Source: a bacterium (GTDB lineage Bacteria; Patescibacteriota; Patescibacteriia; SBBB01). Taken from it: a stretch of 64,000 nucleotides of DNA. Both the position numbers and the translations under genes were made by a program. How positions within the stretch are numbered: position 1 is the first letter of the stretch; each line of letters starts with the position of its first letter. The DNA lies in NCBI GenBank assembly GCA_005239895.1, contig SBBB01000025.1:8980-72979 (forward strand), given 5' to 3'. Below, piece after piece: positions 17,408-61,790 of the stretch. Below the pieces are notes generated by a model. The model was not told the origin of the DNA. It did not search any database and saw nothing but the letters and a program-made list of their open reading frames with translations.

Positions 17408-17613
17408 CTAGGGTACAAGACTGCACCCTATTGTATTTTTATATTTTATTCTGCACTTCTTGTTTGATACGATCCATAAATTCCACAAGTGACATTGCTC
17501 CTATTTTGCCATAGGGTACAAGACTGCACCCTATTGTGTCTTATTTTGAACCTCTTTTTTAATACGATTTATAAAATCTACAAGCGACATTACTCCTATT
17601 TTTCCATGTTTAT
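17408..17613. repeat. Tandem ~103-bp duplication; the second copy forms the 3' end of thrS.
   Basis: Copy 1 (17408-17510) and copy 2 (17511-17613) are ~75% identical. Both begin AGGGTACAAGACTGCACCCTATTGT. Copy 1 read on the minus strand encodes a diverged ...GKIGAMSLVEFMDRIKQEVQNKI*. Confidence 0.7.
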
Positions 17614-19279
17614 GGCTTTCTACAGTTACAGTTTGAGATGTCATTTCTTTTTCACCTATAATTAAAAAGTAAGGAACTCTTGCTTCTTTGGCACATTTAA
17701 CTTTTTTACCCAACATTTCATCAGAAACATTTGTTTCCACTCTAACACCATCTTTAATTAAACTGTCAGCAATATTTTTGACGTATTCTTTTTGCTTTTC
17801 AGTTACAGATAGGATTTGCACCTGAACTCGTGATAACCACACTGGAAATGCCCCAGCGCAATGTTCGGTTAATAATGCAAAAAATCTTTCAAAAGAACCT
17901 AGTATAGCTCTATGAATAATTACAGGTTCTTCTTTTTCTCCTTTAGAATTTGTGAATTCTAAGTTGGAACGTTTGGAGGAGTAAAAATCTATCTGAATTG
18001 TGGCGATAGTATCTTCTTTGCCAGCTACATTTTTCATTTGTATATCTATTTTTGGTCCATAAAAAGATGCTTCTCCTTCTACTTCAACAAATGGCGCTGC
18101 GAATGCAATCAGGCTGTTTCTAGTAACTGTTGCGGCTTCGTCCCACATTTTTTTATTTTTGATATCTCCAAATTTTTCCGTATTTGAAAAATCAGGCAAA
18201 GATAATCTAAACCAGTATTCTTTAATTTGAAAAACATCGTCAAAAACTTCTTTAAAAAGTTTTAGCACATTAATGATTTCATTTTGTAAATCTTTTTTAT
18301 CGCAATAAATATGACTGTCGTTTTGAGTAAATCCCCTGCTACGAATTAAACCTGTTAATACTCCCGATCGCTCAAAACGATGCACCAGGCCAAATTCAGC
18401 TAATCTTATGGGTAGATCCCTGTAACTTAAGGGGCGATGTTTAAATATTTGATGGTGGTGTGGGCAATTCATAGGTCTCAAATAATATTCTTCACCCTCA
18501 ATTTCAATGGGATTATACATATCATCTTTGTAGTGTGCTAAATGACCAGATTTTTCGTACAATCTTTTATGGGTAAGAATCGGTGTGTTAACGTATTGAT
18601 ATCCATTAGCTAATTCTTTATCAAAAATAAAATCTTCAAGTTTTTTTCTTATAAATGCTCCATTTGGTAGCCAAAGCGGCAGTCCTTTACCAACCTCATC
18701 TGAAATCATAAAAAGTTGCAGTTTTTCACCCAAGAGTCTGTGGTCGCGTAGTTTAGCTTCAGCTTGTTGTTTTTTATATTCTTCAAGCATTTCCTTAGTT
18801 TCAAAAGCTAGACCATAAACGCGCGTTAACATAATATTTTTTTCATCACCTCTCCAGTATGCTCCAGCTATATGCGTTAATTCAAAAGCATCTATTGGTA
18901 TTTCTTTAGTATTTTCAATATGACCACCCTTACAAAGATCAATAAAATCACCGGTTTTGTATAAAGTTATAGTTGCTCCAGCATTTTCTAATTCATTAAT
19001 GAGTTCAATTTTAAACGGTTGATCTTTAAATTGTTTTTTAGCTTCATTGGCAGTAGTTTCAATTCTTTCAAAAGAAAGATTTTGTTTAATAAGACTAATC
19101 ATATTTTGTTGCAGGGTGGGAAGCATTTCATTGGAAAAGGGTTTAGAAAATTGAATATCATAATAAAACCCATTGTCTATAATTGGACCTATGGCTAATT
19201 TTAGATTGGGGTCGTATTGTAGAGACGCGGTTGCCAATAAATGAGCTAAAGAGTGTCTTAAATTATCTAGGTTGGACAT
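17531..19279 (-). CDS. thrS: Threonyl-tRNA synthetase (starts at the editing domain; no N-terminal TGS domain).
   Basis: HSLAHLL editing motif, IGPIIDNGFYYD, and class II catalytic plus anticodon-binding domains. At 582 aa it is shorter than canonical ThrRS. Confidence 0.9.
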   Translation of the reverse strand: MSNLDNLRHSLAHLLATASLQYDPNLKLAIGPIIDNGFYYDIQFSKPFSNEMLPTLQQNMISLIKQNLSFERIETTANEAKKQFKDQPFKIELINELENAGATITLYKTGDFIDLCKGGHIENTKEIPIDAFELTHIAGAYWRGDEKNIMLTRVYGLAFETKEMLEEYKKQQAEAKLRDHRLLGEKLQLFMISDEVGKGLPLWLPNGAFIRKKLEDFIFDKELANGYQYVNTPILTHKRLYEKSGHLAHYKDDMYNPIEIEGEEYYLRPMNCPHHHQIFKHRPLSYRDLPIRLAEFGLVHRFERSGVLTGLIRSRGFTQNDSHIYCDKKDLQNEIINVLKLFKEVFDDVFQIKEYWFRLSLPDFSNTEKFGDIKNKKMWDEAATVTRNSLIAFAAPFVEVEGEASFYGPKIDIQMKNVAGKEDTIATIQIDFYSSKRSNLEFTNSKGEKEEPVIIHRAILGSFERFFALLTEHCAGAFPVWLSRVQVQILSVTEKQKEYVKNIADSLIKDGVRVETNVSDEMLGKKVKCAKEARVPYFLIIGEKEMTSQTVTVESHKHGKIGVMSLVDFINRIKKEVQNKTQ

Positions 19280-19605: not shown

Positions 19606-19667
19606 ATGAGGAAAAATTTTGCTATGCAAAATTTTAGTGCCTGCACTACGGAGCCTTGGCGTAGTAG

Positions 19668-19741
19668 TGCGCCCGAGAGGACTCGAACCCCTAACCTCTT
19701 GGTTCGAAGCCAAGCACTCTATCCAATTGAGCTACGGGCGC
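19668..19741 (-). tRNA. tRNA-Arg (anticodon TCG).
   Basis: Minus-strand read GCGCCCGTAGCTCAATTGGATAGAGTGCTTGGCTTCGAACCAAGAGGTTAGGGGTTCGAGTCCTCTCGGGCGCA. Anticodon loop CTTCGAA; acceptor stem 7 bp; A73. Confidence 0.8.
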
Positions 19742-19826: not shown

Positions 19827-20498
19827 TTAAAAAGATGTATTCAGGCTTGGTCCTGGTAATTGTAAGCCCGAAGGAGGAGGCTGGAGAGAGTCTTGAAGGT
19901 TAACACTTGGTATTTGTGGACCTGGTACTGTGGTTTGAAGTCCTCCAGCGCCAGGTAGAGTGTTTAGGGTTGGATTAGAATTTAATTGTACAGCTGGCGG
20001 TGAACTAAAAAAGTTTCGTACAGAATCAACGCCTCTATTAAAAGCACCAGAAGCAGTATCACCAATACTACCAACCCTACCAGTACCCCCTGCTGATCCA
20101 TATATTCCCGTGCCCTGAACACTTCTTAGTATAAATGTACTAATTGAATAAGCTGAAAGTATAATAGCAGCTCCAATAGCGCTATTAATCATTAAGTTTT
20201 TAGCTTTTTTGATTTGTTCGTCATTGCCGCCCGCTGTCATCCAAAGATAACCAGCAAATACAATTAATACTAAACATATAATACCCAATAAACTTAAAGC
20301 AACTCTAATAAGTAGGGCTATTGTAGATGGTAATGATGGTGTAGCTGTTCCTGTTGTATATCCAGCATGACTACCCCCACCTTCAAGATAGCCCCTTATC
20401 TCATCTCGCGTTGATCCCAATACATTAAAAACAGGAATTATTAATAGTAGTATTATTATAAATGTATAACTAAATTTAATAAACAGGTTTTTATACAT
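19827..20498 (-). CDS. VirB2/TrbC-like (T4SS-type) pilin family paralog 1, with a long Gly/Pro/Ser-rich C-terminal tail.
   Basis: Signal peptide, then two hydrophobic helices around FAGYLWMTAGGNDEQIKKAKNLMINSAIGAAIIL. The C-terminal ~100 aa are low-complexity G/S/P/Q. Confidence 0.55.
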   Translation of the reverse strand: MYKNLFIKFSYTFIIILLLIIPVFNVLGSTRDEIRGYLEGGGSHAGYTTGTATPSLPSTIALLIRVALSLLGIICLVLIVFAGYLWMTAGGNDEQIKKAKNLMINSAIGAAIILSAYSISTFILRSVQGTGIYGSAGGTGRVGSIGDTASGAFNRGVDSVRNFFSSPPAVQLNSNPTLNTLPGAGGLQTTVPGPQIPSVNLQDSLQPPPSGLQLPGPSLNTSF

Positions 20499-20500
20499 AT

Positions 20501-20872
20501 TTATAATAATTTATCTATTAATTTACCTATCACAAAACTACTTATAACATACGCGCCTAAAACAATAATAACACCAATTATGCCATTAACCAATAAACCC
20601 TGGGCTTTTTTCACTTGTTCGTCATTGCCGCCCGCTGTCATCCAAAGATAACCAGCAAATACAACCAAGACTAAGAACACAATACCCAATAAACTTAGAA
20701 CTATCTGAATTACGTTCCCTATTATAACAACTGGATGTTTGGGTTCTTGAGGGCTAACGTCGCTACCAATTAAACGATCCAAGGGGTGTAATGGGAGTGC
20801 GTATGTTAAGGTACTAAATAACATAGAACAAAGCATTATTAATAAAAATAAGTATAAAAGACGGTTTTTCAT
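20501..20872 (-). CDS. VirB2/TrbC-like pilin family paralog 2.
   Basis: VFAGYLWMTAGGNDEQVKKAQGLLVNGIIGVIIVLGAY. Confidence 0.55.
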   Translation of the reverse strand: MKNRLLYLFLLIMLCSMLFSTLTYALPLHPLDRLIGSDVSPQEPKHPVVIIGNVIQIVLSLLGIVFLVLVVFAGYLWMTAGGNDEQVKKAQGLLVNGIIGVIIVLGAYVISSFVIGKLIDKLL

Positions 20873-20887
20873 ATAACAATAATATAG

Positions 20888-21295
20888 CTAATTAATTGTG
20901 AATTGACTCAACCGGCCTATTATGTAATAACTTATAATATACGCTGCTAAAACAATAATAACACCAATTATACCATTAACCAACAATTCTTGCGCTTTGG
21001 TGACTTGCTCTTTGTTTCCGCCTGCTGTCATCCATAAATAGCCAGCGTATACAGTTAATACTAAAAATATAATACCTACAAAACTAATTATCATTACGAT
21101 AATTTTACCAATAAATTTTTCAGGTTGATCGATTATGCTGTCATTTCGATTATATCTTGCGTCTTCAGCAACCTGGTCTAGAATCCCAACACTAGTGTTA
21201 GGATCTGGGGTTTCTGCTGTATGTATAAGAGCAGGAGTAAAAATATTTAGAGCCAGAAACAATAATATTAGCCCAAAATATATTTTTTTATTCAT
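20888..21295 (-). CDS. VirB2/TrbC-like pilin family paralog 3.
   Basis: VYAGYLWMTAGGNKEQVTKAQELLVNGIIGVIIVLAAY. Confidence 0.55.
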   Translation of the reverse strand: MNKKIYFGLILLFLALNIFTPALIHTAETPDPNTSVGILDQVAEDARYNRNDSIIDQPEKFIGKIIVMIISFVGIIFLVLTVYAGYLWMTAGGNKEQVTKAQELLVNGIIGVIIVLAAYIISYYIIGRLSQFTIN

Positions 21296-21311
21296 ATTAA
21301 ATAATATTTTA

Positions 21312-21731
21312 TTAGGACGGGTTTGTAAAACTTATTAAATTTGTTAAAATAAATTTACTTATAATATACGCGGCTACAATTATAATTATACCTATAATAT
21401 TATGTATTATTTTAGTTTGGGCGGTTTTTATTTTTTCTTTTTCTCCGCCGGAATGCATCCATTGTAATCCCGCTATAATTAGATTGGTTAAAAAAATAAT
21501 ACCTATAAAACTTGTTACCACTGCAATAATATTGCCGTACGAGCTAAGAGCGGCATTTCCACTCGGGTCTTTTGTAGGATCACCAAAAAATTTTTTTGCA
21601 GATGTGGCAAAATTATTTTTTACATCATCAAAAGTGCCAGCCTTTATGTACGATTCAGGATAAAATAAATAAATTATACTTCCCAGTAAGCTAAAAAAAA
21701 TATTTTTAATATTTGTTTTTATTTTAAACAT
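21312..21731 (-). CDS. VirB2/TrbC-like pilin family paralog 4 (the most divergent core).
   Basis: IIAGLQWMHSGGEKEKIKTAQTKIIHNIIGIIIIVAAY. Confidence 0.5.
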   Translation of the reverse strand: MFKIKTNIKNIFFSLLGSIIYLFYPESYIKAGTFDDVKNNFATSAKKFFGDPTKDPSGNAALSSYGNIIAVVTSFIGIIFLTNLIIAGLQWMHSGGEKEKIKTAQTKIIHNIIGIIIIVAAYIISKFILTNLISFTNPS

Positions 21732-21737
21732 AAATTT

Positions 21738-22190
21738 TTAAACCTTGCTAGACATGTTATATATATTAAATCCAGGTGGAGTAGTGGGCTGACCGGTTTT
21801 AACACTGGTAATAACTTTTTGTAAAATAAACCAAGTAATAAGTCCAGCGCCCATAACAACAATTAATCCTAAAATAGCCTGGCTTAGCATACCTTGAGCT
21901 TTTTTAACAGCTTCATCATTACCTTTAGCTGTCATCCACTGAATTCCAGCTATAATAATTAAAGTTAAAAATATTACACCCACTAAACCTAAACTATAAA
22001 AAATAATATTACCTATAATTTTTGAAATATCACTTTCGGGTAGCGTGCCAAATGCTTCTCTAGCAGTTGTTGTTAAACCATAATTAGATGCTAGTTTGAT
22101 ATTTCCCAGAGCGTAGGTATTTTGGGCAATCAATAAAACGATTGCGCTAAAAATAAAAAAAGTAATTAATAATGATTTATTGCGAACCAT
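21738..22190 (-). CDS. VirB2/TrbC-like pilin family paralog 5.
   Basis: IIAGIQWMTAKGNDEAVKKAQGMLSQAILGLIVVMGAG. Confidence 0.55.
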   Translation of the reverse strand: MVRNKSLLITFFIFSAIVLLIAQNTYALGNIKLASNYGLTTTAREAFGTLPESDISKIIGNIIFYSLGLVGVIFLTLIIIAGIQWMTAKGNDEAVKKAQGMLSQAILGLIVVMGAGLITWFILQKVITSVKTGQPTTPPGFNIYNMSSKV

Positions 22191-22262
22191 AAGTGTATTA
22201 TACCAAAGACAATCGGATAAAATTTTTTTTAAAATTTATTTTAAATAATCACCTAAAATATT

Positions 22263-22292
22263 AGGTGCGCTTATCTTAAATAAGCAGCACCT
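22263..22292 (-). terminator. Nested hairpin terminator inside the pilin-like array, just downstream of paralog 6.
   Basis: Minus-strand read AGGTGC-TGCTTATTTAAGATAAGC-GCACCT, followed by an A/T-rich run containing short T stretches. Confidence 0.45.
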
Positions 22293-22309
22293 AATATTTT
22301 TAGTTTAAT

Positions 22310-22723
22310 TTACGGAGTAGTAGGAGTAGCATCACTGGTTACGCTTAGTAAGGAGGATAATACGAAGGTTACTAAAGAGTATGCAGTTAAGATAATTACT
22401 AATCCAATACCAGCTGCCATTAATAAAGCTTTAGCTTTAGTAATTTGTTCATCGTTACCAGCGGCTGTCATCCACATAAATCCACCAACGATGACCAAGA
22501 CTACCGCAATAATACCTAGAAACCCTAAGGCGATTCTAATAATTTTTGCGATTGTAACTCTTATATCTGTACTAGCTAATCCAGTTTCATCACCTGCACT
22601 ACCAGTACCAATACCAATTCCGCCTTGATCAAGGGGAGTGGCACCCAATGCCAAACGAGGCATTACAAACAAGGTCAATAAAGTTAAAAATATCATTGCA
22701 GAGTATAATATGTTTTTATTCAT
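22310..22723 (-). CDS. VirB2/TrbC-like pilin family paralog 6.
   Basis: VGGFMWMTAAGNDEQITKAKALLMAAGIGLVIILTAY. Confidence 0.55.
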   Translation of the reverse strand: MNKNILYSAMIFLTLLTLFVMPRLALGATPLDQGGIGIGTGSAGDETGLASTDIRVTIAKIIRIALGFLGIIAVVLVIVGGFMWMTAAGNDEQITKAKALLMAAGIGLVIILTAYSLVTFVLSSLLSVTSDATPTTP

Positions 22724-22797
22724 ACGTCACCCCCTCTCAAATAAAAATTTATTATTAATTTATATAATTATATATTGGTTTATCTGTTTTGTGAATA

Positions 22798-23262
22798 TTA
22801 AGGATTAGTGGATGTAGAAACTGGATGTTCGCGTGTAACTGGCGCAGCTGTGGATGGGTTTGGATCTATTTCTAGGAGGTTTTGATTTGTAATCCTACCA
22901 CCCCATTGATAAATCCAGCCTTGTACCAATAAATAACTACCTAATACAATTATAATACCGATTATAGCATTAGTCAATATAACCTTACCAGTGTTAATAT
23001 CTTTTTTGTCACCACCCCTAGATCCAATCATTATTAACAAGCCTCCGTACATAAACATAAGTAAGGCTAAACTACCCACAATACCCATTATAAGATTAGC
23101 AATATTAACTATTAATTTTTTAAAACTAGATAGTTTGCAATCTGTTCCCGCATTGATTCCCCTGCATTCATGGGGAACTATCACTATAGCCGCATCAAGC
23201 ACTATGGGCAACACCATAGTAAATATAATTAATAAAATAAATAAAGATGTTTTAGAGTTCAT
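22798..23262 (-). CDS. VirB2/TrbC-like pilin family paralog 7 (divergent, with a Cys pair in the ectodomain).
   Basis: MYGGLLIMIGSRGGDKKDINTGKVILTNAIIGIIIVLGSY; ECRGINAGTDC near the N-terminus. Confidence 0.45.
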   Translation of the reverse strand: MNSKTSLFILLIIFTMVLPIVLDAAIVIVPHECRGINAGTDCKLSSFKKLIVNIANLIMGIVGSLALLMFMYGGLLIMIGSRGGDKKDINTGKVILTNAIIGIIIVLGSYLLVQGWIYQWGGRITNQNLLEIDPNPSTAAPVTREHPVSTSTNP

Positions 23263-23268
23263 ATTTAT

Positions 23269-24663
23269 TTAATAGCTATTATTTATTTTAGTAGCGCCCA
23301 AACCCAGAGCTTCATTTAGGGTTTTGGTATTATTTTTTAAGGCTATTTCAATTATTTCACGAAAAATTAGGTCCATTTTCTGAGGATTCTTGCCTCTATA
23401 CCAATTCTTACTAGTTAATAATTGTTGACTAAATACTCCGATATCCAAACTTTCACGCTGAGAATCAATAAGTTGACGCAGAGCAGTTGGTCTTTGCGTA
23501 AGTTCTAAATATTTAACTACTTCTTTTTCCGAAGTTATAAACTGAATTAAATCCCAAGCCTGATCTTTATGTTTAGATTTTTTGAGAACACTTTCGACAT
23601 AATAACTTGCGAAGTTTATTTCAGGATTGCCTGTGATTTGAGGTATTTTAGCAACATCAAACTTTAGAGTTGGGGCTGTTTTTTTAAGAACCTTATAATC
23701 GTCAAAATAACCAAACATAAAAGCTAGCTTTCCTTGTCTAAAAATATTTAAATCATAATTAATCTCCGAATTCCAAGTATAAACATCTTTGCTAGGCGTG
23801 GCAAAACTGGCATAAAACTCTAAAGACTCTAGTCCGGGAGACCTTTCTCTTCCTCCTCTGGACAATGTAACAGATTCATTGAAAGTTACGGAGTTACCCC
23901 TTGTCATATTTGCTCCATTTTGCATCATTAATAATGCTACCAAATCAACTGGATGACTTACGTTGTTATTTGTTCCTAGGGCTGTTCCATAAAGAATTAG
24001 TTTATCGGTGTTATCTTTTTTAGTAATTTTTTGAACTGCATCTACAAAGTTGCCCCAATCATTGGGTGGCAAAGATATATTACTTTTATTCAAAATATCT
24101 TTATTATAAAACATAGCCAAAGTATCAATTCCCAGGGGTAGTCCGTAGACCTTGGGCTGAGTTTCTGGTTTTTTAGTTATAGGATTTATAATCTCGGTTG
24201 GTAGAACAACATCTTCATAAACCGTATCTATAAACGAGTCTTTTAGTTTTCGCATAGACATAGTTGGGTTGGTTGCATATTCTGTCACTATTTCTTTTTT
24301 TATACTTCCTTCTAGGTGTTGATAAGCAATAGTGGTTGTAGGGGGCATATAGACTAGTTTAGATTGGTATTTTTTTAACCAAGTTATAGGTAAAGATACA
24401 ATGTCCGGTCCCCGATCTTCAGCTAAAGCGTTTAGTAACTCATTTTCCAATTCATCTAAGGGGATTTGTTTGTAATTGATAGTAACATAAGGATGCCCTG
24501 TTTTATACGCATCTAAAACCGGTTTTAACGATGATTCTTCGTCATTAACTCTCCAGTAGTTTAAAGTTACGGGATCTAATTTAACATTTTGTTTGCACTT
24601 AAATCCAGTTGTGGTTAAAATTATTAAAAGTAGTATTAAAATTTTTGCTTTAGATGAAATCAT
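23269..24663 (-). CDS. Extracellular solute-binding protein (ABC-type, family 1-like), secreted.
   Basis: Signal peptide; the overall pattern resembles MalE-like sugar-binding proteins. No adjacent permease or ATPase genes. Confidence 0.55.
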   Translation of the reverse strand: MISSKAKILILLLIILTTTGFKCKQNVKLDPVTLNYWRVNDEESSLKPVLDAYKTGHPYVTINYKQIPLDELENELLNALAEDRGPDIVSLPITWLKKYQSKLVYMPPTTTIAYQHLEGSIKKEIVTEYATNPTMSMRKLKDSFIDTVYEDVVLPTEIINPITKKPETQPKVYGLPLGIDTLAMFYNKDILNKSNISLPPNDWGNFVDAVQKITKKDNTDKLILYGTALGTNNNVSHPVDLVALLMMQNGANMTRGNSVTFNESVTLSRGGRERSPGLESLEFYASFATPSKDVYTWNSEINYDLNIFRQGKLAFMFGYFDDYKVLKKTAPTLKFDVAKIPQITGNPEINFASYYVESVLKKSKHKDQAWDLIQFITSEKEVVKYLELTQRPTALRQLIDSQRESLDIGVFSQQLLTSKNWYRGKNPQKMDLIFREIIEIALKNNTKTLNEALGLGATKINNSY

Positions 24664-25993: not shown

Positions 25994-26008
25994 CAATCTA
26001 CTGAGTCT

Positions 26009-26031
26009 ACTTAGTGGCAAGGCGACTAAGT
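26009..26031. repeat. 23-bp imperfect palindrome ACTTAGTGGCAAGGCGACTAAGT (one of four copies), followed by two partial reiterations.
   Basis: Identical or inverse copies lie at 34497-34519, 34566-34588 and 59172-59194. Confidence 0.8.
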
Positions 26032-26099
26032 GCTGTTAAAAGCGGCTAAGTGCTGTTACTAAGTGTTGTTAAATTATGTGTTTGATGTTTTTTTAAATC

Positions 26100-26128: not shown

Positions 26129-27133
26129 CTATATTGAGAAATGTATTAAGTTGCGTACTTCGGCTAAGGTTTTTTGTGCTACTTTGCGCGCGTTCGCAGA
26201 ACCATCTTTAAGCATGTTTAAAATTTTAGTTTTGTCTTTGCTTAAGGCTTCGCGTCGTTGACGAACGGGTTTTATTAAATCTATTAAAACTTGAATTAAT
26301 CTCTTTTTTAAAACAACATCTCCCAGTCCCCCAGCCTGATATTGTTTTTTTAATTTGCTAATTTCGTTTTTATTAGGATCAAAAATATCTAGATAAGTAA
26401 AAACTGTATTTCCCTTTATATGTCCGGGGTCTGTAATTTTAAGATGTTTAGAATCTGTATACATTGACATTACACTTTTTTCTATTTCTTCATCAGTGGA
26501 CGAAAGATAAATAGCATTATTAAGACTTTTACTCATTTTTGTTTTTCCATCTATACCGGGCAATAAACTTGTACTTTCAGATAATAAAGGTTTAACCGTA
26601 TTAAAAAATACAGCGCGAGGAGAATAAAGTTTATTAAACCTTAAGGCTATTTCATTGGTTTGCTCTAACATTGGTAGTTGATCTTTACCAACCGGTACTA
26701 AATGAGCTTTAAATGCTAAAATATCAGCGGCCTGAGAAATTGGGTATACTAAAAAGCCGACGGGTATATTGTTCGTCATTTGTTTTTGTTTCATTTCAGT
26801 TTTAACAGTTGGATTTCTTTGGAGACGAGCCAAGGTTACTAAGTTTAAAAAATACACAGTTAATTCCGCAAGTTCGGGAATTAAAGATTGTACAAAAATT
26901 GTAGTTTTTTGAGGATCAATACCCACGGCCAAATAATCCAAAGCAACCTCGGTAATATTTTCTTGAATTTTAGATGGGTTGTCAGTATTATCAGTTAAAC
27001 CTTGAATATCAGCAATCATTACGAATTGATTATAGTCGTTTTGTAATTTAACGCGATTTTGTAGAGACCCAACATAATGTCCAAGGTGTAGTTTGCCAGT
27101 TGGTCTATCCCCGGTTAAAATTATAGGTTTCAT
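26129..27133 (-). CDS. trpS: Tryptophanyl-tRNA synthetase.
   Basis: TGDRPTGKLHLGHYVGSL (HIGH region) and KMSKS. Confidence 0.9.
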   Translation of the reverse strand: MKPIILTGDRPTGKLHLGHYVGSLQNRVKLQNDYNQFVMIADIQGLTDNTDNPSKIQENITEVALDYLAVGIDPQKTTIFVQSLIPELAELTVYFLNLVTLARLQRNPTVKTEMKQKQMTNNIPVGFLVYPISQAADILAFKAHLVPVGKDQLPMLEQTNEIALRFNKLYSPRAVFFNTVKPLLSESTSLLPGIDGKTKMSKSLNNAIYLSSTDEEIEKSVMSMYTDSKHLKITDPGHIKGNTVFTYLDIFDPNKNEISKLKKQYQAGGLGDVVLKKRLIQVLIDLIKPVRQRREALSKDKTKILNMLKDGSANARKVAQKTLAEVRNLIHFSI

Positions 27134-32919: not shown

Positions 32920-33891
32920 ATGAATAATATGCCATCTAATTTATTAAAAATTCATACTTTGGTTTATAGGTTTTTAGAATATCTGGAGATTGAAAAAAAT
33001 GTTAGCAAATTAACACTTAGAAATTATACTTTTTATTTAGATCGTTTTATTAAATGGTTGGACGAACGCAATGTGGATACGATTGATAAAATGAATCAAT
33101 CTGTCATGCGTGAGTATAGAATATGGTTAAATAGATACAAAACCAAACATGATCAAGTTTTAAGAAAAAATACGCAAAATTATCATTTAATAGCTATTAG
33201 AAATTTTTTAAAATATTTAGCTAAGGTGGATGTTTCGTGTTTGGATCATTCCAAAATTGAATTAGCTCGCGTTGCGGAAAGGCAAGTTCAATTTTTAGAT
33301 CACGATGATCTAAATAGACTTTTAGAAGCTCCCCTTATGGTAAATAAATCTAAAGTAGTAGATTCAAATATTATCATGGCTCGCGATAAAGCTATTTTGG
33401 AACTATTGTTTTCAACGGGGTTGCGAGTATCAGAATTAACGGGTTTATATATTGATAATATTAATTTAAAAAAAGATAGCTTTACGATTCGAGGAAAAGG
33501 TGATAAGTTAAGGTTAGTATTTTTGTCTAAAATAGCCAGATTGTGGATTGCAAAATATTTAGACCTGCGTAAGGACTTAAATCCTTATTTGTTTATCAGT
33601 CATAATATTAATAATCAAACCATAATTACACAGCGCGAAGGCTTGACCAATCGCTCGATTCAACGTTTAATTATAAAGTACGCTAAAGTAGCTGGGATAA
33701 CTAAAAAAGTTACGCCCCATACTTTGCGTCATTCTTTTGCGACCGATCTTTTAATGAACGGAGCTAATTTGCGTTCTGTGCAGGAATTGTTAGGACACAC
33801 TTCTATTAGCACTACTCAGATTTATACGCACTTAACTGACCAGCACCTGAATCAGGTTTATCAAACATTTCACGACACTAAGAGAAAGTAA
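32920..33891 (+). CDS. Tyrosine recombinase, XerC/XerD family.
   Basis: C-terminal HTLRHSFATDLLMNGANLRSVQELLGHTSISTTQIYTHL, including the catalytic RHxxR and Y. The N-terminal SAM-like core-binding domain is present. Confidence 0.8.
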   Translation: MNNMPSNLLKIHTLVYRFLEYLEIEKNVSKLTLRNYTFYLDRFIKWLDERNVDTIDKMNQSVMREYRIWLNRYKTKHDQVLRKNTQNYHLIAIRNFLKYLAKVDVSCLDHSKIELARVAERQVQFLDHDDLNRLLEAPLMVNKSKVVDSNIIMARDKAILELLFSTGLRVSELTGLYIDNINLKKDSFTIRGKGDKLRLVFLSKIARLWIAKYLDLRKDLNPYLFISHNINNQTIITQREGLTNRSIQRLIIKYAKVAGITKKVTPHTLRHSFATDLLMNGANLRSVQELLGHTSISTTQIYTHLTDQHLNQVYQTFHDTKRK

Positions 33892-34496: not shown

Positions 34497-34588
34497 ACTT
34501 AGTCGCCTTGCCACTAAGTAGACTGGAAGTGTTTGGAGGTCGGACTTCCAAACATTAATAATATTACTTAGTGGCAAGGCGACTAAGT
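34497..34588. repeat. Composite nested repeat: an inverted pair of the 23-bp ACTTAGTGGCAAGGCGACTAAGT element flanking a GGAAGTGTTTGGAGGTCGGACTTCCAAACATT palindrome.
   Basis: CTTAGTCGCCTTGCCACTAAGT at 34497-34519; palindrome at 34525-34556; ACTTAGTGGCAAGGCGACTAAGT at 34566-34588. Confidence 0.8.
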
Positions 34589-34597
34589 GCTGTTACA

Positions 34598-47070: not shown

Positions 47071-48114
47071 TTAAGACATTCTATCCACTAAAAATATAAT
47101 TAAACCCGCCATACTACTAATAGCAGATATAATCCATAAACGCATAACAATTCTTGGCTCTCCCCAACCCTTAAATTCTAGGGTGTGATGAATCGGTGTA
47201 GATGGAAAAATTTTAGTATTAAATAATTTTTTGGAAGCGGTTTGCATTATAACTGATACGGATTCAGCCACTAAAACCAAACCAATAATAGGCAATAATA
47301 AAACCGCATTAGTTAAAATAGAAATAATTCCTAGAGTTACGCCCAAAGACATTGATCCTGTGTCTCCCATAAAAAAACGAGCTGGATGAATATTAAACCA
47401 TAGAAAAGCTAACAAAGCCCCTACCAATACTCCGCATAAAGTGGCTAGATTATATTTGTGTTGTATAAAAGCAATAGAACCATAAGAAGTTAAAGCAAAC
47501 AATAAAACTCCACCCGCCAAACCATCTAATCCATCAGTTAAATTAACTGAGAAAGATGTAGCAACTATAATAAAAATAAAAACCAAAATATATAGAATTC
47601 CAATATCATAATTTCCCATAAAAGGTATATAAATACTTGTCCACTGTAATTTAAAATAAAACCACCAGGCCCCAAAAGCCGCAATTAACGTATATAAAAT
47701 AACCCGGTCTTTAACCCTTAATCCTTTATTGTCTTGACCCAAGCCATAAATTTCCCACAAATCATCCACTAATCCAACTAGAGCGGAAGCAAATAAAGCA
47801 CCTAGGGGTAAATAAGTTTCTTCGCGATTTATAAAATTTAAATATGCAAGAAACGATTCGGGGAAAAGCTTGGATGCTAAAAGAAATACCCCTGAAACAA
47901 TTAACACGGTTACCCATATTAATATTCCACCCATGGTGGGAGTATTTTTTTTAGAAGAATGAAGTTTAGAAAAAATAGGAGTGTCTTTAGATGTGCGTAT
48001 TTTTTTATAAAATTGATTTTTATATAAAAAATTACTAAAACAGGGCGTTAAAGCTAAACTAATCAAAAAAGCAATGGTAGTTAAAAATAAAATTTTAATA
48101 ATTTCAATTTGCAT
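47071..48114 (-). CDS. mraY: Phospho-N-acetylmuramoyl-pentapeptide transferase.
   Basis: KKNTPTMGG, NLTDGLDGLAGG and FMGDTGS. Confidence 0.8.
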   Translation of the reverse strand: MQIEIIKILFLTTIAFLISLALTPCFSNFLYKNQFYKKIRTSKDTPIFSKLHSSKKNTPTMGGILIWVTVLIVSGVFLLASKLFPESFLAYLNFINREETYLPLGALFASALVGLVDDLWEIYGLGQDNKGLRVKDRVILYTLIAAFGAWWFYFKLQWTSIYIPFMGNYDIGILYILVFIFIIVATSFSVNLTDGLDGLAGGVLLFALTSYGSIAFIQHKYNLATLCGVLVGALLAFLWFNIHPARFFMGDTGSMSLGVTLGIISILTNAVLLLPIIGLVLVAESVSVIMQTASKKLFNTKIFPSTPIHHTLEFKGWGEPRIVMRLWIISAISSMAGLIIFLVDRMS

Positions 48115-48492: not shown

Positions 48493-49596
48493 TTATTTAT
48501 AAAAACTTGTTTTTTTATGTATAATATAAACCGTTAAAAACATAATAATTAATAATATAATAAAAGCTATTAGTTTGCCATAGGTTTTTAAAAATAACGC
48601 GCTAATTCCAAAAACAAAAGAACAAAACAAAAAAAACATTACAACCTGACGAGGCGTTAGTCCCCTATCTAATAATTTAAAATGCAAATGTTTGCGATCG
48701 GGTTTAGTAAGACTAGAACGATCAATAATTTTGCGTTTAATTATAATCCAGACAACATCCATTATGGGTAGACCCAGAATTAGCACAGTGGTTGCTATTT
48801 TTCCTCCGGCAATAATAGATAATACACCCAATATAAAACCAAGAAATAAACTACCACCTTCACCCAAAAATATTTTAGCTGGAGGAAAATTAAAAATAAA
48901 AAATCCCAAACAAACTCCGCTAAAAATAATAGCTAGCATAGCTGTTCCGACTTGATTTACAGGTGGAAAAATGCTCAGCAGAAAAATAATAAAGCCACCC
49001 ACAAAACCAAGTCCCGACACCAATCCATCTACGCCATCTAATAATTTAGTAGTGTACATTATTCCTAATAACCAACAAAATATTAATATATCCGCTAAGG
49101 GTACAATATAGAAGGGTATTTCATTCCATCTAAAAATTTCAAACTTATAATTGTCTAAACGGTAAACTCCACCCAAAGGATTAGTAATAAAATTAATATC
49201 AATACCACTCATAAGAATAATTAAGGCCGCTAAGCATGGAAATATAAGTTGTTGCCAATATTTTAATTTATATTTATCGTCTAAAAAACCACCGATAATT
49301 AATATTAGTCCTCCTAAAAATATACCTATTATATATTTCGGTAGAATATAATTATGAGTCCAAACGACGCTGGAATTATATATTAAAATTCCTAATATTA
49401 TAAAAAAAGAGCTAAAAATAGCTGTACCACCTAAAAGGGGTGTAGGTTTAGTATGAAATTTTCGAATTTTATCGGGTATATCTATAATTTGTAATTTTAA
49501 GGCTATATTTTTTACAACTGGTGTAATCAAACCCGACACTAGCACAGAGCTTAAAAAAAATATCACAAAATAATAAATATGTGCTGCAAGTATCAT
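48493..49596 (-). CDS. Glycosyltransferase family 4 polyprenyl-phosphate sugar-1-phosphate transferase (WecA/TagO-like).
   Basis: KPTPLLGG, LLDGVDGL and FLGEGGS; a paralog of mraY. Confidence 0.7.
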   Translation of the reverse strand: MILAAHIYYFVIFFLSSVLVSGLITPVVKNIALKLQIIDIPDKIRKFHTKPTPLLGGTAIFSSFFIILGILIYNSSVVWTHNYILPKYIIGIFLGGLILIIGGFLDDKYKLKYWQQLIFPCLAALIILMSGIDINFITNPLGGVYRLDNYKFEIFRWNEIPFYIVPLADILIFCWLLGIMYTTKLLDGVDGLVSGLGFVGGFIIFLLSIFPPVNQVGTAMLAIIFSGVCLGFFIFNFPPAKIFLGEGGSLFLGFILGVLSIIAGGKIATTVLILGLPIMDVVWIIIKRKIIDRSSLTKPDRKHLHFKLLDRGLTPRQVVMFFLFCSFVFGISALFLKTYGKLIAFIILLIIMFLTVYIIHKKTSFYK

Positions 49597-54679: not shown

Positions 54680-55717
54680 TTATTGAGCGGATGGTAAGCG
54701 AATTTGTTTTAACAAGTCGGGATTATCTAATAACATTCCAGTTCCGCGTGCCACAGTTGTTAAGGGATCTTCGGCAATACGCACGGGTATTTTTAAAGAA
54801 TCGCTAATAATTTTATCTATACCATTCAACAAAGACGATCCCCCGGTTAAAATAATGCCACTGTCATAAACATCCGCTATTAACTCCGGTGGAGTATTTT
54901 CTAGGGTCAAACGAATATTATCAATAATTAAACGTATAGAACCGTTAAGAACCGAACGCACCTCCGTATCAGTTATAATCATTTCTCTGGGGAGTCCGCT
55001 AACCAAGTCTCGTCCTCGCATAAGAATATTAGATGGTTTGGGTAAAGCAATGGCTGATCCAATATTTATTTTAATATCTTCGGCTATTTTTTCACCAATA
55101 AACAAATTAAAATGATGTTTAGCGTAATCTATAATATAATGATTAAAATCGTTTCCTCCAATTTTTAAAGATTTTGAATTAACAATACCACCCATAGATA
55201 TAACCCCTATATCTGTCGTTCCTCCTCCAATATTAACAATCATAATTGCGCTGGGTTCCAAAATTGGTAAGCGCATTCCAATAGCCGCGGCAATTAATCC
55301 CTCCACAATATAAACATCTCTAGCCCCTATGGTAAAAGCAATATCTTCAACGGCTTTACGTTCCACCTCGGTTAAATCTAAAGCGATACACATAACAACT
55401 TTAGATCGGCTAATTAAACTAAACGAATCAGCGTAGATTTTATCTATAAAACATTTCAACATTTTTTCAGCTACAGGAAAGTCCGAAATAATACCATTTG
55501 TTAAGGGTTTACTTACGGTAATGCGCTGAGGTGTTTTACCAAACATTTTTTTAGCTTCATTACCAGTCGCTATAACCTCTTGGGTGACATTATTAATCGC
55601 CACAATAGACGGTTCATTAATAACAATACCCCGATCTTTGGCGTATATTAAAGTATTGACAGTGCCCAAATCAATACCTATATCTTTAGCAAATAAACTA
55701 AAAAAATTATTTATCAT
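54680..55717 (-). CDS. mreB: Actin-like protein MreB.
   Basis: IGIDLGTVNTLIY..NEPSIVAI and the phosphate/adenosine motifs. Confidence 0.9.
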   Translation of the reverse strand: MINNFFSLFAKDIGIDLGTVNTLIYAKDRGIVINEPSIVAINNVTQEVIATGNEAKKMFGKTPQRITVSKPLTNGIISDFPVAEKMLKCFIDKIYADSFSLISRSKVVMCIALDLTEVERKAVEDIAFTIGARDVYIVEGLIAAAIGMRLPILEPSAIMIVNIGGGTTDIGVISMGGIVNSKSLKIGGNDFNHYIIDYAKHHFNLFIGEKIAEDIKINIGSAIALPKPSNILMRGRDLVSGLPREMIITDTEVRSVLNGSIRLIIDNIRLTLENTPPELIADVYDSGIILTGGSSLLNGIDKIISDSLKIPVRIAEDPLTTVARGTGMLLDNPDLLKQIRLPSAQ

Positions 55718-60782: not shown

Positions 60783-61790
60783 TTAACGTCCGCTTACTAA
60801 GCTTTTTTTGTAAATATGAAGATTTTCTAACGCAATTCCTGTGCCCTTAGCAACACATAAAATTGATTCATCGGCAATATAACTGAATACACCTGTGGCG
60901 CGGGCAATTAACTTGTCCATATTTCTAAGCAAAGAACTACCACCTGATAAAGCTATACCTTTTTCAATAATGTCTGCGGCTAATTCCGGGGGTGTGTTGG
61001 AAAATACTGATTTTACAGCGGCTATAATAGCATTAAGTTCATTTTGAATAGCATCGGTAATATCATCCGAAGTTATTTTAACAACCTTAGGTAAGCCCGT
61101 TACCATATCTCTGCCCCGCACTACCATTTCTAATTTTTGTTCTAAATACATGGCGGAACCAATTTTAATTTTAATATCTTCGGCTGTTCTTTCTCCAATC
61201 GCTAAATTATATTTCTTTTTTATAGCATCGGAAATTGCCGCGTCAAATTTAGTGCCTCCGACTCTAATTGAAGTTGAAGATACTATTCCACCTAAAGATA
61301 TCACGGCTATCTCAGATGTACCTCCCCCAATATCAATAATCATATAACCAGAGGGATTACCAATAGGTATGCCTGCTCCAATAGCAGCAGCAATAGGTTC
61401 TTTAATAATGTATGCGCAACGAGCGCCAGACATCATGGCCGCGTCAATTACCGCGCGTTTTTCAGTGGAAGTGATTCCAGCTGGTACAGCAATCATAACA
61501 TCGGGTTTAATAAATCTTATGCTACCCAAGGCTTTATTAATAAAATAGCGAAGCATGGCTTCGGTAACTTTATAATCAGCAATAACACCATCTTTCAATG
61601 GTCTCATAGCAATTATAGTGTCAGGGGTTCGTCCAATCATTTCTTTGGCTTCTATGCCCACGGCTAATACCCTGCGATCTAAGGTAGATATAGCCACTAC
61701 AGATGGTTCATTAATAATAATCCCCTTTCCGGGTACATGAATTAAGGTGTAAGTTGTGCCCAAATCAATTCCTATGGCTTTTATAAACAT
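60783..61790 (-). CDS. Second actin-like MreB paralog.
   Basis: IGIDLGTTYTLIHV..NEPSVVAI; full actin-fold motifs. Confidence 0.85.
   Translation of the reverse strand: MFIKAIGIDLGTTYTLIHVPGKGIIINEPSVVAISTLDRRVLAVGIEAKEMIGRTPDTIIAMRPLKDGVIADYKVTEAMLRYFINKALGSIRFIKPDVMIAVPAGITSTEKRAVIDAAMMSGARCAYIIKEPIAAAIGAGIPIGNPSGYMIIDIGGGTSEIAVISLGGIVSSTSIRVGGTKFDAAISDAIKKKYNLAIGERTAEDIKIKIGSAMYLEQKLEMVVRGRDMVTGLPKVVKITSDDITDAIQNELNAIIAAVKSVFSNTPPELAADIIEKGIALSGGSSLLRNMDKLIARATGVFSYIADESILCVAKGTGIALENLHIYKKSLVSGR

What the first reader, a model, noticed from the sequence alone, without database searches (positions are those of the whole stretch)
19827..23262. Seven-gene tandem array of paralogous VirB2/TrbC-like pilin proteins with hypervariable ectodomains
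Seven consecutive same-strand genes of 123-223 aa share one architecture. Each has a signal peptide, a variable 30-60 aa N-terminal segment, and a nearly invariant two-helix core, (I/V)(F/Y)AGYLWMTAGGNDEQ(V/I)KKAQ..L.N.IIGVIIVL.AY. Two hydrophobic helices separated by a short charged loop, with a conserved W-M, is the fold of T4SS pilins (VirB2/TrbC). The cores are conserved while the N-terminal segments and C-terminal tails differ completely; paralog 1 carries a ~100-aa G/S/P-rich tail and paralog 7 a Cys pair. That pattern suggests diversified surface-exposed subunits. No VirB4, VirD4 or VirB6 gene is within 40 kb. The only secretion ATPase present is a PilB/GspE-type gene at the window edge. 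A hairpin terminator sits inside the array at 22263-22292. Multiple small pilins in an array in a putative episymbiont may support host attachment or DNA uptake, and may switch or vary.
Basis: partly seen in the sequence, partly recalled or inferred. Interest (0 to 1): 0.8.

Follow-up and report, generated by a model that had tools for sequence, protein, structure and literature searches.

The report
VirB2-like pilin gene array, Patescibacteria
This is a real operon of seven divergent VirB2-like (Pfam T4SS_pilin) genes led by a sugar-binding lipoprotein gene in a Magasanikbacteria-type ultrasmall bacterium, and it is one more example of the pilin arrays already described across Patescibacteria.

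Summary
The seven minus-strand genes at 19827-23262 are real paralogs. All seven hit Pfam PF18895 (T4SS_pilin), five above the curated cut-off and two just below it. Each has a signal peptide, a variable segment and a confident two-helix hairpin.

The core is not "nearly invariant". Mean pairwise identity is 42% in the core, 14% in the N-terminal segment and 9% in the tails.

The window holds no VirB4, VirB6 or VirD4 gene. Relatives are ABY1-class Patescibacteria, mostly Magasanikbacteria. There, same-strand arrays of 2-16 pilin genes (median 9) are the norm. They lie away from virB4 and directly follow a sugar-type solute-binding lipoprotein gene, as the array does here (23269-24663).

Such arrays are already published: 441 arrays of 2-11 genes, and the array in Southlakia epibionticum is essential.

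The paralogs are old and differentiated, not a switching cassette. The first gene is a conserved Cys-pair subtype. The second has its own promoter-like site, a strong ribosome-binding site and a terminator hairpin, and is probably the major subunit.

Verdict: a new member of a known kind. The likely function is subunits of a T4SS-dependent surface filament. That function is inferred, not shown.

The parts
23269..24663 (-). Solute-binding-protein gene (464 aa, SBP_bac_1, sugar/CUT1 type), a predicted membrane-anchored lipoprotein. It is the first gene of the operon and ends 6 nt before the first pilin gene.
   Evidence: PF01547 at 2e-26 and PF13416 at 1.5e-24. The nearest solved relatives are maltose and oligosaccharide binding proteins. 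Homologs were found in 47-49 of 77 related loci depending on the filter, on the same strand and upstream of the bulk of the array, with an SBP-to-pilin gap of 13 nt or less in 36 of 47. A lipobox G-[FL]-G-C is conserved in relatives, while the window copy reads G-F-K-C.
22798..23262 (-). Pilin p7 (154 aa), first in transcription order. It is a divergent subtype with a Cys pair (C33, C42) just before helix 1, and it has YGGLLIMIGS in place of the W-M motif.
   Evidence: PF18895 at 3.6e-9 and 37.0 bits. Its best matches are the first-after-SBP pilins of other genomes at 58-64 bits, against 43 bits for any paralog in its own genome. The Cys pair and the loss of W-M are conserved in those orthologs.
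22767..22795 (-). Promoter-like site (TTCACA-17-TATAAT, 11 of 12 matches) upstream of p6. The only strong Shine-Dalgarno sequence in the array (GAGAGGGGGTGA) follows it.
   Evidence: This is a consensus match only. The region as a whole is not enriched in such matches (31 found against 26 expected).
22310..22723 (-). Pilin p6 (137 aa), the candidate major subunit. It is bracketed by its own promoter-like site, a strong ribosome-binding site and the downstream hairpin.
   Evidence: PF18895 at 6.4e-8 and 33.0 bits, and NF045849 at 36.9 bits, the best of the seven. It has the highest cross-genome scores of the seven, 106-115 bits over 85-133 aligned residues. Its orthologs are followed by gaps of 60 nt or more in 44% of cases against 19% for other junctions, and by structured spacers in 46% against 15%, Mann-Whitney p = 9e-5.
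22255..22300 (-). Stable hairpin of about 21 bp with a U-rich 3' side, between p6 and p5. It is a probable intrinsic terminator or attenuator that splits the array into two expression units.
   Evidence: Perfect 14-nt arms at 22255-22268 and 22287-22300 (I21). The fold of 22191-22309 gives -31.9 kcal/mol and z = -6.0, with none of 200 shuffles as stable. Termination itself is inferred.
21738..22190 (-). Pilin p5 (150 aa). A TGGTATAAT extended -10 box ends 7 nt before its ATG.
   Evidence: PF18895 at 8.8e-6 and 26.1 bits, just under the 26.6 cut-off. The sequence context is shown.
21312..21731 (-). Pilin p4 (139 aa). Its core reads AGLQWMHSGGEKE.
   Evidence: PF18895 at 2e-5 and 25.0 bits, just under the cut-off. 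It scores 165 bits against the local 7-pilin HMM, but it is itself part of that model.
20888..21295 (-). Pilin p3 (135 aa).
   Evidence: PF18895 at 1e-7 and 32.4 bits. It is the mutual best hit of p2, with 68% core identity, which points to a more recent duplication.
20501..20872 (-). Pilin p2 (123 aa), the shortest copy and the one used for the structure model.
   Evidence: PF18895 at 6.5e-8 and 33.0 bits. The AlphaFold2 model has mean pLDDT 83.5 with a helical hairpin at 47-79 and 84-122. A public gene call starts 16 codons later (P0001, 107 aa) and would remove the signal peptide.
19827..20498 (-). Pilin p1 (223 aa), last in transcription order. It carries a 99-aa G/S/P-rich C-terminal extension after helix 2.
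   Evidence: PF18895 at 1.1e-9 and 38.6 bits. Tail composition is given. In 10 related loci the same module carries C-terminal extensions of up to about 3,350 aa.

Best explanation
The locus is an operon from an ABY1-class (Magasanikbacteria-like) patescibacterium. A sugar-type solute-binding lipoprotein gene is followed by seven anciently diverged VirB2-like pilin genes of Pfam family T4SS_pilin.

Shown here: family membership, the signal peptide plus helical-hairpin architecture, the gene order, the punctuation of the operon, and its conservation across relatives.

Inferred: each precursor is exported by Sec and cleaved by signal peptidase I. The mature protein then sits in the cytoplasmic membrane as a helical hairpin, with the short conserved loop (GGNDEQ.KKA) facing the cytoplasm and the variable N-terminal segment and C-tail facing outside. 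A VirB4/VirB6/VirB3-type T4SS encoded elsewhere in the genome extracts these subunits and polymerises them into a surface filament. The conserved loop lines the lumen and the variable parts form the exposed surface.

The seven are probably not interchangeable. p6 has its own promoter-like site, a strong ribosome-binding site and a terminator hairpin, and it is the most conserved across genomes, so it is probably the major subunit. p7, the conserved Cys-pair subtype always next to the SBP gene, and the tailed p1 are probably specialised minor subunits.

By analogy with the essential pilin series in the T4SS gene cluster of Southlakia epibionticum, the filament probably serves contact with, or exchange with, a host cell.
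For: - PF18895 hits all seven genes.
- Close homologs also reach PF04956 TrbC/VirB2 at E 5e-7 to 1e-5, three of them above the cut-off.
- hhalign against Agrobacterium VirB2 aligns the two helices in register with the W-M motif, though weakly at E 0.005 and probability 7%.
- The AlphaFold2 hairpin is confident, and hydropathy shows a signal-like segment plus two helices.
- Intergenic distances of 6, 74, 119, 6, 16, 15 and 2 nt indicate one or two transcription units that start with the SBP gene.
- In related loci, arrays of 2-16 genes lie on one strand in 77 of 77 loci, and the SBP gene is upstream in 42 of 47 complete loci.
- Six of 7 named relatives have VirB4 elsewhere in the genome.
- p7 shows positional orthology with a conserved Cys pair.
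- p6 orthologs are preferentially followed by long structured spacers.
[quoted passage not shown] PMC12102498 reports 441 arrays of 2-11 genes. PMC12857230 reviews the idea of a pilus-bearing monoderm T4SS.
Against: - No filament of this family has been observed in any patescibacterium in the papers read here.
- No T4SS machinery lies in the 64-kb window or within 10 kb of any related array, and the rest of this genome could not be examined.
- The seven proteins themselves do not hit PF04956 at E of 1 or less or any solved VirB2/TraA sequence.
- Fold searches do not discriminate for a helical hairpin.
- Giant C-terminal fusions in relatives are hard to fit into a closely packed pilus if those proteins are major subunits.
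- The major-subunit assignment for p6 rests on sequence signals only.
Confidence: 0.6

Rival explanations
1. The proteins are membrane-resident components of a monoderm T4SS channel and do not form an extended pilus. They would work like the small two-helix 'pilin-like conjugal transfer proteins' of Mollicutes ICEs.
For: Six of the seven give sub-threshold hits to NCBIfam NF045849, the Mbov_0395 family of pilin-like conjugal transfer proteins from wall-less monoderms, with a best score of 36.9 against a cut-off of 40. The patescibacterial T4SS descends from monoderm MPF-FATA systems, which normally lack pili (PMC12102498).
Against: A channel component would not be expected in 7-16 divergent copies with hypervariable outward-facing segments and long tails. 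It would also be expected to sit with the machinery genes, and these arrays do not.
Confidence: 0.18
2. The two-helix module is mainly a membrane anchor or carrier that displays variable ectodomains as adhesins or glycan-binding surfaces. It would work together with the SBP lipoprotein and independently of a T4SS.
For: Ten related loci encode the same N-terminal module fused to proteins of 555-3,478 aa. p1 carries a 99-aa tail. The arrays are detached from virB4 and tightly coupled to a sugar-type SBP lipoprotein. In relatives a type IV prepilin gene and other surface-protein genes lie just upstream.
Against: Most copies, here five of seven, have only 30-60 aa of ectodomain, which is too little for a binding domain. 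The highly conserved cytoplasmic loop and W-M motif suggest interaction with a common machine rather than simple anchoring. In Saccharimonadia the homologous arrays lie inside the T4SS cluster (PMC10633639).
Confidence: 0.15
3. The array is an antigenic or phase-variation system in which one pilin is expressed at a time, or copies recombine.
For: Tandem paralogs with a shared core of 61-77% DNA identity over 170 nt in five copies could support recombination (D1). A tyrosine recombinase gene lies 10 kb away at 32920-33891 and recurs near 15 related arrays.
Against: Every copy has its own start codon and signal peptide. The longest exact shared DNA tract is 23 nt (D4). No inverted repeats flank a promoter. 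p7 is a positional ortholog across genomes, and most paralogs are as similar to pilins of other genomes as to each other, which indicates old and stable paralogy. The Logan contig of the same locus is 100% identical over 5.4 kb. The recombinase looks like housekeeping XerC/D.
Confidence: 0.05
4. The proteins are holin-like, bacteriocin-like or immunity peptides and are unrelated to secretion.
For: They are small proteins with two membrane helices. Fold searches return only generic helical hairpins.
Against: PF18895 is the only consistent family hit. No lysin, bacteriocin-processing or ABC-exporter gene lies nearby. Cleavable signal peptides followed by variable ectodomains are not a holin architecture. 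The family has 83,385 cluster representatives, and those seen here lie in conserved chromosomal arrays.
Confidence: 0.02

Closest known systems
VirB2-like pilin arrays of Patescibacteria (Quinonero-Coronel et al. [quoted passage not shown] Southlakia epibionticum ML1 T4SS cluster SEML1_0006-0019, Wang et al. 2023, PMC10633639; the 'Sec secreted array' of TM7x)
   Same: The Pfam family is the same (PF18895, with PF04956 in relatives). The genes form a tandem same-strand array. Full-length identity between copies is low, 15-41% here against a published mean of 25% and maximum of 54%. The host is a monoderm ultrasmall bacterium.
   Different: In ML1 the pilin genes lie inside the T4SS gene cluster. 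Here, and in 77 ABY1-class relatives, the array is detached from virB4, is headed by a sugar-type SBP lipoprotein gene, and reaches 16 copies. The paper reports arrays as most abundant in Microgenomatia and Saccharimonadia and does not mention the SBP linkage.
Classical VirB2/TrbC/TraA conjugative pilins of diderm T4SSs (Pfam PF04956; Agrobacterium T-pilin, F-pilin)
   Same: Both have a long signal peptide followed by two hydrophobic helices joined by a short loop. A W-M motif at the end of helix 1 aligns with the ISWM of VirB2. Close homologs reach PF04956.
   Different: The seven do not reach PF04956 themselves and do not match solved pilin sequences. They carry 30-60 aa variable N-terminal segments and sometimes long tails. 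They are chromosomal, multi-copy and not next to virB genes. The host has no outer membrane.
Tandem VirB2 paralogs in Bartonella and Anaplasma phagocytophilum virulence T4SSs (cited in PMC12102498)
   Same: Both are tandem amplifications of divergent VirB2-type genes, with variation concentrated in exposed parts.
   Different: Those are proposed to act in immune evasion in animal hosts. Here the paralogs are old, partly positionally conserved, and present in environmental epibiont-type bacteria.
Major and minor pilin sets of type IV pili
   Same: As an analogy only, both are operons that encode one abundant subunit plus several specialised low-abundance subunits, some with large appended modules.
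   Different: The families are unrelated. None of the seven has the class III prepilin motif G|F(T/S)L(I/L)E. The T2SSE ATPase at 62702-63922 belongs to that other system.

Membership tests
Pfam PF18895 T4SS_pilin | HMM score at or above the curated gathering score of 26.6 bits | tested here: met
   Five of seven are above it (38.6, 33.0, 32.4, 33.0 and 37.0 bits). Two are just below (25.0 and 26.1) but are clear paralogs of the others.
Pfam PF18895 T4SS_pilin | Architecture of a signal peptide followed by two membrane helices joined by a short loop | tested here: met
   The AlphaFold2 model has helices at 2-25, 47-79 and 84-122, with the hairpin at pLDDT 90-94.
Patescibacterial VirB2-like pilin array (as defined in PMC12102498) | Two or more PF18895/PF04956 genes in tandem, or separated by one non-pilin gene, in a Patescibacteria genome, with low identity between copies | tested here: met
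   Seven are in tandem. Full-length pairwise identity is 15-41%. The nearest relatives are Magasanikbacteria, Uhrbacteria and Buchananbacteria, which Table S1 places in class ABY1.
Classical TrbC/VirB2 pilin (Pfam PF04956) | A significant match to the PF04956 model | tested here: not met
   None of the seven hits it at E of 1 or less. Homologs at 37-61% identity do, at 25.9-30.4 bits against a cut-off of 27.9, so the link is only transitive.
Classical TrbC/VirB2 pilin (Pfam PF04956) | Sequence or fold similarity to solved conjugative pilins | tested here: inconclusive
T4SS pilus subunit (functional class) | Encoded with, or at least in the same genome as, VirB4, VirB6 and VirB3 assembly machinery | tested here: not met
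   None is present in the 64-kb window. The rest of the genome is not available. In relatives the arrays are also detached, although VirB4 is present in 6 of 7 genomes. The genome-level criterion is therefore not testable here.
T4SS pilus subunit (functional class) | Polymerises into an extracellular filament | not testable with these tools
   This needs microscopy or biochemistry. It was not reported for any patescibacterium in the papers read.
NCBIfam NF045849, Mbov_0395 family pilin-like conjugal transfer protein | Score at or above the curated cut-off of 40 bits | tested here: not met
   The best score is 36.9 bits (p6). The others score 19.9-28.2, and p7 has no hit.
Type IV pilin (T4P/T2SS pseudopilin) | Class III signal peptide with G|F(T/S)L(I/L)E and a single N-terminal hydrophobic helix | tested here: not met
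   The motif is absent from all seven, and each has two helices after the signal peptide.
ABC-transporter solute-binding protein, family 1 (the gene at 23269-24663) | SBP_bac_1 domain, and a cognate permease and ATPase nearby | tested here: inconclusive
   The domain is met, with PF01547 at 2e-26 and sugar-SBP structures as nearest relatives. No permease or ABC ATPase gene was found in the window or among the conserved neighbours in relatives.

The most novel reading that the evidence does not exclude
In ABY1-class Patescibacteria, the operon of a sugar-binding lipoprotein plus an ordered set of differentiated VirB2-like pilins may be a self-contained surface-recognition module. It includes a Cys-pair first subunit, a separately expressed major subunit, and modular members whose tails range from 100 to about 3,350 aa. 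Under this reading the pilin fold has been repurposed as a carrier for variable ectodomains, the orphan SBP supplies host-glycan recognition or nutrient capture at the filament or contact site, and assembly may not follow the classical virB-linked route.
Probability: 0.2. Interest if true: 0.6.

Novelty: new member of a known kind. Interest (0 to 1): 0.3.

Why it matters
Patescibacteria make up a large share of uncultured bacterial diversity, and most appear to live attached to other cells. The one genetic study available found the T4SS and its pilin series to be essential for epibiotic growth, but nobody knows what the structure does.

This locus adds no new category. It does show that in the ABY1 class (Magasanikbacteria and relatives) the pilin array is a stable chromosomal operon. 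The operon is detached from the T4SS genes, headed by a sugar-binding lipoprotein, and internally differentiated into a probable major subunit and conserved specialised subunits.

That gives concrete candidates for expression, proteomic, structural-modelling or ligand-binding work. It also argues against reading these arrays as antigenic-variation cassettes.

Tried and rejected
- Exact-sequence look-ups of the pilins failed for the 123-aa and 107-aa forms. The look-up for p3 returned only a 5.4-kb Logan contig, not the 194.5-kb NCBI contig. Cluster look-ups gave no organism names. The rest of the genome therefore could not be searched for VirB4.
It worked with the three closest.
- The source genome is not among the GTDB representatives; the best identity was 62%.
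- The profile search of PDB sequences returned only chance hits such as designed 'Pizza' proteins.
- The one-call Pfam scan of 42 large neighbour ORFs shows only 25 of 89 families. I backed it up with a Walker-A filter, which left only proteins I read as FtsH, PilB, ComM and MutS by matching lengths to the families. A VirB4 under 480 aa or split into pieces would be missed.
- Two alignment calls failed on out-of-range coordinates.
- Literature searches for an SBP-pilin link found nothing. That shows absence only within the searchable library.
- The holin/bacteriocin idea and the type IV pilin idea were considered and rejected.
- I did not pursue dN/dS because the paralogs are too diverged.

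Full report
**Naming.** p1 is 19827-20498 and p7 is 22798-23262. All lie on the minus strand, so transcription runs from p7 to p1.

Seven consecutive minus-strand ORFs sit exactly where stated: 223, 123, 135, 139, 150, 137 and 154 aa. All seven hit Pfam PF18895 (T4SS_pilin). Five are above the curated 26.6-bit cut-off. Two are just under it, at 25.0 bits for 21312-21731 and 26.1 bits for 21738-22190. An HMM built from the seven finds no other copy in the window.

Each protein has an N-terminal hydrophobic, signal-like segment and two further hydrophobic helices. An AlphaFold2 model of p2, built from a 48-sequence alignment, has mean pLDDT 83.5. Its helices lie at 2-25, 47-79 and 84-122, and the hairpin scores 90-94.

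- Only five alignment columns are invariant.
- Core pairwise identity is 23-68%, with a mean of 42%.
- The quoted motif is shared only by p1, p2 and p3, and p7 lacks the W-M.

The contrast with the flanks is real: 14% identity in the N-terminal segment and 9% in the tails. The 99-aa G/S/P-rich tail of p1 and the Cys pair of p7 (C33, C42) are present.

The hairpin exists and is bigger than stated. It spans 22255-22300 with about 21 bp. The spacer RNA folds at -31.9 kcal/mol with z = -6.0.

**2. Context in the window**

The array sits among housekeeping genes:
- Threonyl-tRNA synthetase (17531-19279, by reading) and tRNA-Arg (19667-19741) lie downstream.
- Upstream lie a solute-binding protein gene (23269-24663), a divergent 420-aa gene, a class I tRNA synthetase of the Trp/Tyr family (26129-27133), YceG, three glycolysis genes, EF-Ts and a XerC/D-like recombinase.

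I scanned 51 further ORFs of 120 aa or more with Pfam. None matched a VirB4, VirB6, VirD4 or other T4SS family. The only secretion ATPase is the T2SSE protein at 62702-63922 (E 3e-116). None of the seven has a type IV prepilin motif.

The SBP gene ends 6 nt before p7. The other spacers are 74, 119, 6, 16, 15 and 2 nt. The unit is therefore SBP-p7, then p6, then p5 to p1.

p6 is set apart from the rest.
- A TTCACA-17-TATAAT site (11 of 12 matches) lies upstream.
- It has the only strong Shine-Dalgarno sequence in the array.
- The hairpin follows it directly.

**3. Organism and relatives**

Homologs are all patescibacterial PF18895 proteins. A scan of GTDB species representatives returned 77 loci. 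They are mainly Candidatus Magasanikbacteria, plus Uhrbacteria and Buchananbacteria. The best identity was 62%, so the source species is not among the representatives. Table S1 of Quinonero-Coronel et al. 2025 places these groups in GTDB class ABY1.

I searched the six-frame ORFs of those loci with the 7-pilin HMM.
- Arrays are the rule. In 47 loci where the array lies fully inside the fetched DNA, the copy number is 2-16 with a median of 9.
- All pilin genes lie on one strand in 77 of 77 loci.
- Seven copies is therefore ordinary, even modest, for this lineage.

**4.

The SBP gene has a homolog in 47-49 of the 77 loci, depending on the filter. It is present in 42 of the 47 complete arrays. 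It lies on the same strand, upstream of the bulk of the array. The gap to the next pilin gene is 13 nt or less in 36 of 47 cases.

The protein is a family-1, sugar-type binding protein. Its nearest solved relatives are maltose and oligosaccharide binders. Relatives carry a canonical lipobox G-[FL]-G-C, while the window copy reads G-F-K-C.

No ABC permease accompanies it, either here or among the conserved neighbours. Those neighbours are an NTP-transferase, an MGDG-synthase-like glycosyltransferase, a Band 7 protein, PNPase and HisRS. I found no report of this linkage in the searchable literature.

**5. Where is the machinery?**

No VirB4-like ATPase lies within 10 kb of any of the 77 arrays.
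- The conserved neighbour clusters are housekeeping genes.
- Among 42 representatives of all large non-pilin ORFs, only four carry a Walker A motif. By length, and by the families found, I read these as FtsH, PilB, ComM and MutS.

Even so, six of the seven named relatives are listed as VirB4-positive in the published Table S1. These include GW2011_GWC2_37_14 (locus L070) and RIFOXYC2_FULL_42_28 (locus L017). The one negative is a smaller assembly.

Detachment of the array from virB4 is thus normal in this class and does not argue against a T4SS role. I could not examine the rest of this genome.

**6. Relation to classical VirB2**

The seven do not reach PF04956 or any solved pilin sequence. 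Homologs 37-61% identical to p2 do hit PF04956 at E 5e-7 to 1e-5, and three are above its cut-off.

I compared the family profile with Agrobacterium VirB2. I had first checked my recalled VirB2 sequence and found it 99.2% identical to annotated Ti-plasmid genes. The comparison aligns both helices in register with the W-M motif, but only at E 0.005 and probability 7%.

Fold searches are useless for a helical hairpin.

The proteins are therefore members of PF18895. Homology to VirB2 is plausible and accepted in the literature, but here it is only transitively supported.

**7. Are the copies interchangeable?**

- p7 matches the first-after-SBP pilins of other genomes at 58-64 bits, better than any paralog in its own genome at 43 bits. 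Those orthologs share its Cys pair and its replacement of the W-M motif.
- p6 has the highest cross-genome scores, 106-115 bits over 85-133 aligned residues.
- p6 orthologs are followed by long, strongly structured spacers far more often than other junctions. Gaps of 60 nt or more occur in 44% against 19%. MFE of -15 or lower occurs in 46% against 15%. Mann-Whitney p is 9e-5.
- Only p2 and p3 look like a more recent duplication.
- The longest exact DNA tract shared between copies is 23 nt, and nothing resembles an invertible switch.
- A short-read assembly of the same locus is 100% identical. It simply breaks in the repeated core.

This pattern fits an old, differentiated set: one major subunit plus specialised ones. 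It does not fit a variation cassette.

**8. What is known**

- Wang et al. 2023 (PMC10633639) found a series of essential predicted pilin subunits inside the T4SS cluster of Southlakia epibionticum. They noted that Gram-positive T4SSs normally lack pili.
- Quinonero-Coronel et al. 2025 (PMC12102498) found VirB2-like genes in 1,948 VirB4-positive assemblies, near virB4 in 1,135 of them. They report 441 arrays of 2-11 genes with mean identity 25%, and suggest adaptation to different hosts.
- A 2025 review (PMC12857230) speculates that the T4SS and a pilus could act as a conduit for signals or uptake from the host.
- The family is very large, with 83,385 cluster representatives at E of 0.001 or less.

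**9. Verdict**

The most likely mechanism is inferred by homology and topology, not shown. The proteins are Sec-exported hairpin subunits held in the membrane. A T4SS encoded elsewhere polymerises them into a surface filament that displays the variable parts.

The modestly new points are the conserved SBP-lipoprotein head gene, the positional subtypes, the probable major subunit, and the consistent detachment from virB4 in ABY1. The giant-tailed relatives keep open a more unusual reading in which the module serves as a display anchor.

Noticed in passing
L022 5805-16184; also L042, L057, L076, L052, L069, L033, L008, L056, L024: In 10 related loci, a complete pilin module (signal peptide, variable segment, two-helix core) forms the N-terminus of very large proteins of up to 3,478 aa. 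Each is preceded by a pilin-module protein of 555-744 aa. Modular VirB2-type pilins of this size are not something I know to be described.
   Followed up: partly
P0106 (1,775 aa, 17 matched stretches), P0096, P0140, P0174: Many cluster representatives of the family contain 2-17 pilin modules in one predicted protein. They could be real poly-pilin proteins. They could also be tandem genes fused by gene calling under a different genetic code.
   Followed up: no
window 26003-26036, 34497-34524 (inverted), 34565-34593: A palindromic repeat of about 29 nt (ACTTAGTGGCAAGGCGACTAAGTGCTGTTA) occurs three times in intergenic DNA. Two of the copies lie close to tRNA-Arg(tct) and the XerC/D-like recombinase gene. 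It looks like a REP-type element or a shared terminator.
   Followed up: partly
window 22191-22215: An extended -10 box (TGGTATAAT) ends only 7 nt before the ATG of p5, and no Shine-Dalgarno sequence is present. Transcripts that start there would be nearly leaderless.
   Followed up: no
L078, L007, L017, L011, L054, L035 (spacer after the p6 ortholog): The spacers that follow p6 orthologs are sometimes 190-315 nt long and fold at -80 to -114 kcal/mol. That is unusually stable for such AT-rich genomes. It suggests a structured RNA element or stacked terminators.
   Followed up: partly
L004 1072-1689 and 1691-3085 (clusters found in 17 and 22 loci): In relatives, a 205-aa protein with a type IV prepilin motif (QGFTILEALVA) and a 464-aa single-helix protein lie just upstream of the NTP-transferase, SBP and pilin cassette. 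Genes of two different pilus systems are therefore neighbours there. This is not the case in the window.
   Followed up: partly
window 23269-24663 (N-terminus): The SBP lipobox in the window reads G-F-K-C, where most relatives have G-F-G-C. A lysine at position -1 is atypical for lipoprotein signal peptidase, so the anchoring mode may differ in this organism.
   Followed up: no
L003, L009, L010 and about 30 other loci (record titles): Many contigs titled 'uncultured Gammaproteobacteria bacterium' carry typical Magasanikbacteria-type pilin cassettes. The titles look like placeholder mislabels.
   Followed up: no
window 20501-20872 and 22798-23262: Public gene calls start p2 at codon 17 (P0001, 107 aa) and p7 at codon 16 (139 aa in L001). 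Both choices cut off the positively charged start of the signal peptide, so the longer ORFs are more plausible.
   Followed up: partly
window 54680-55717 and 60783-61790: The window holds two MreB paralogs plus MreC, a PBP2-type transpeptidase, RodA/FtsW and two MraY-family genes (47071-48114, 48493-49596). That is a fairly complete rod-shape and wall-synthesis set for an ultrasmall bacterium.
   Followed up: no
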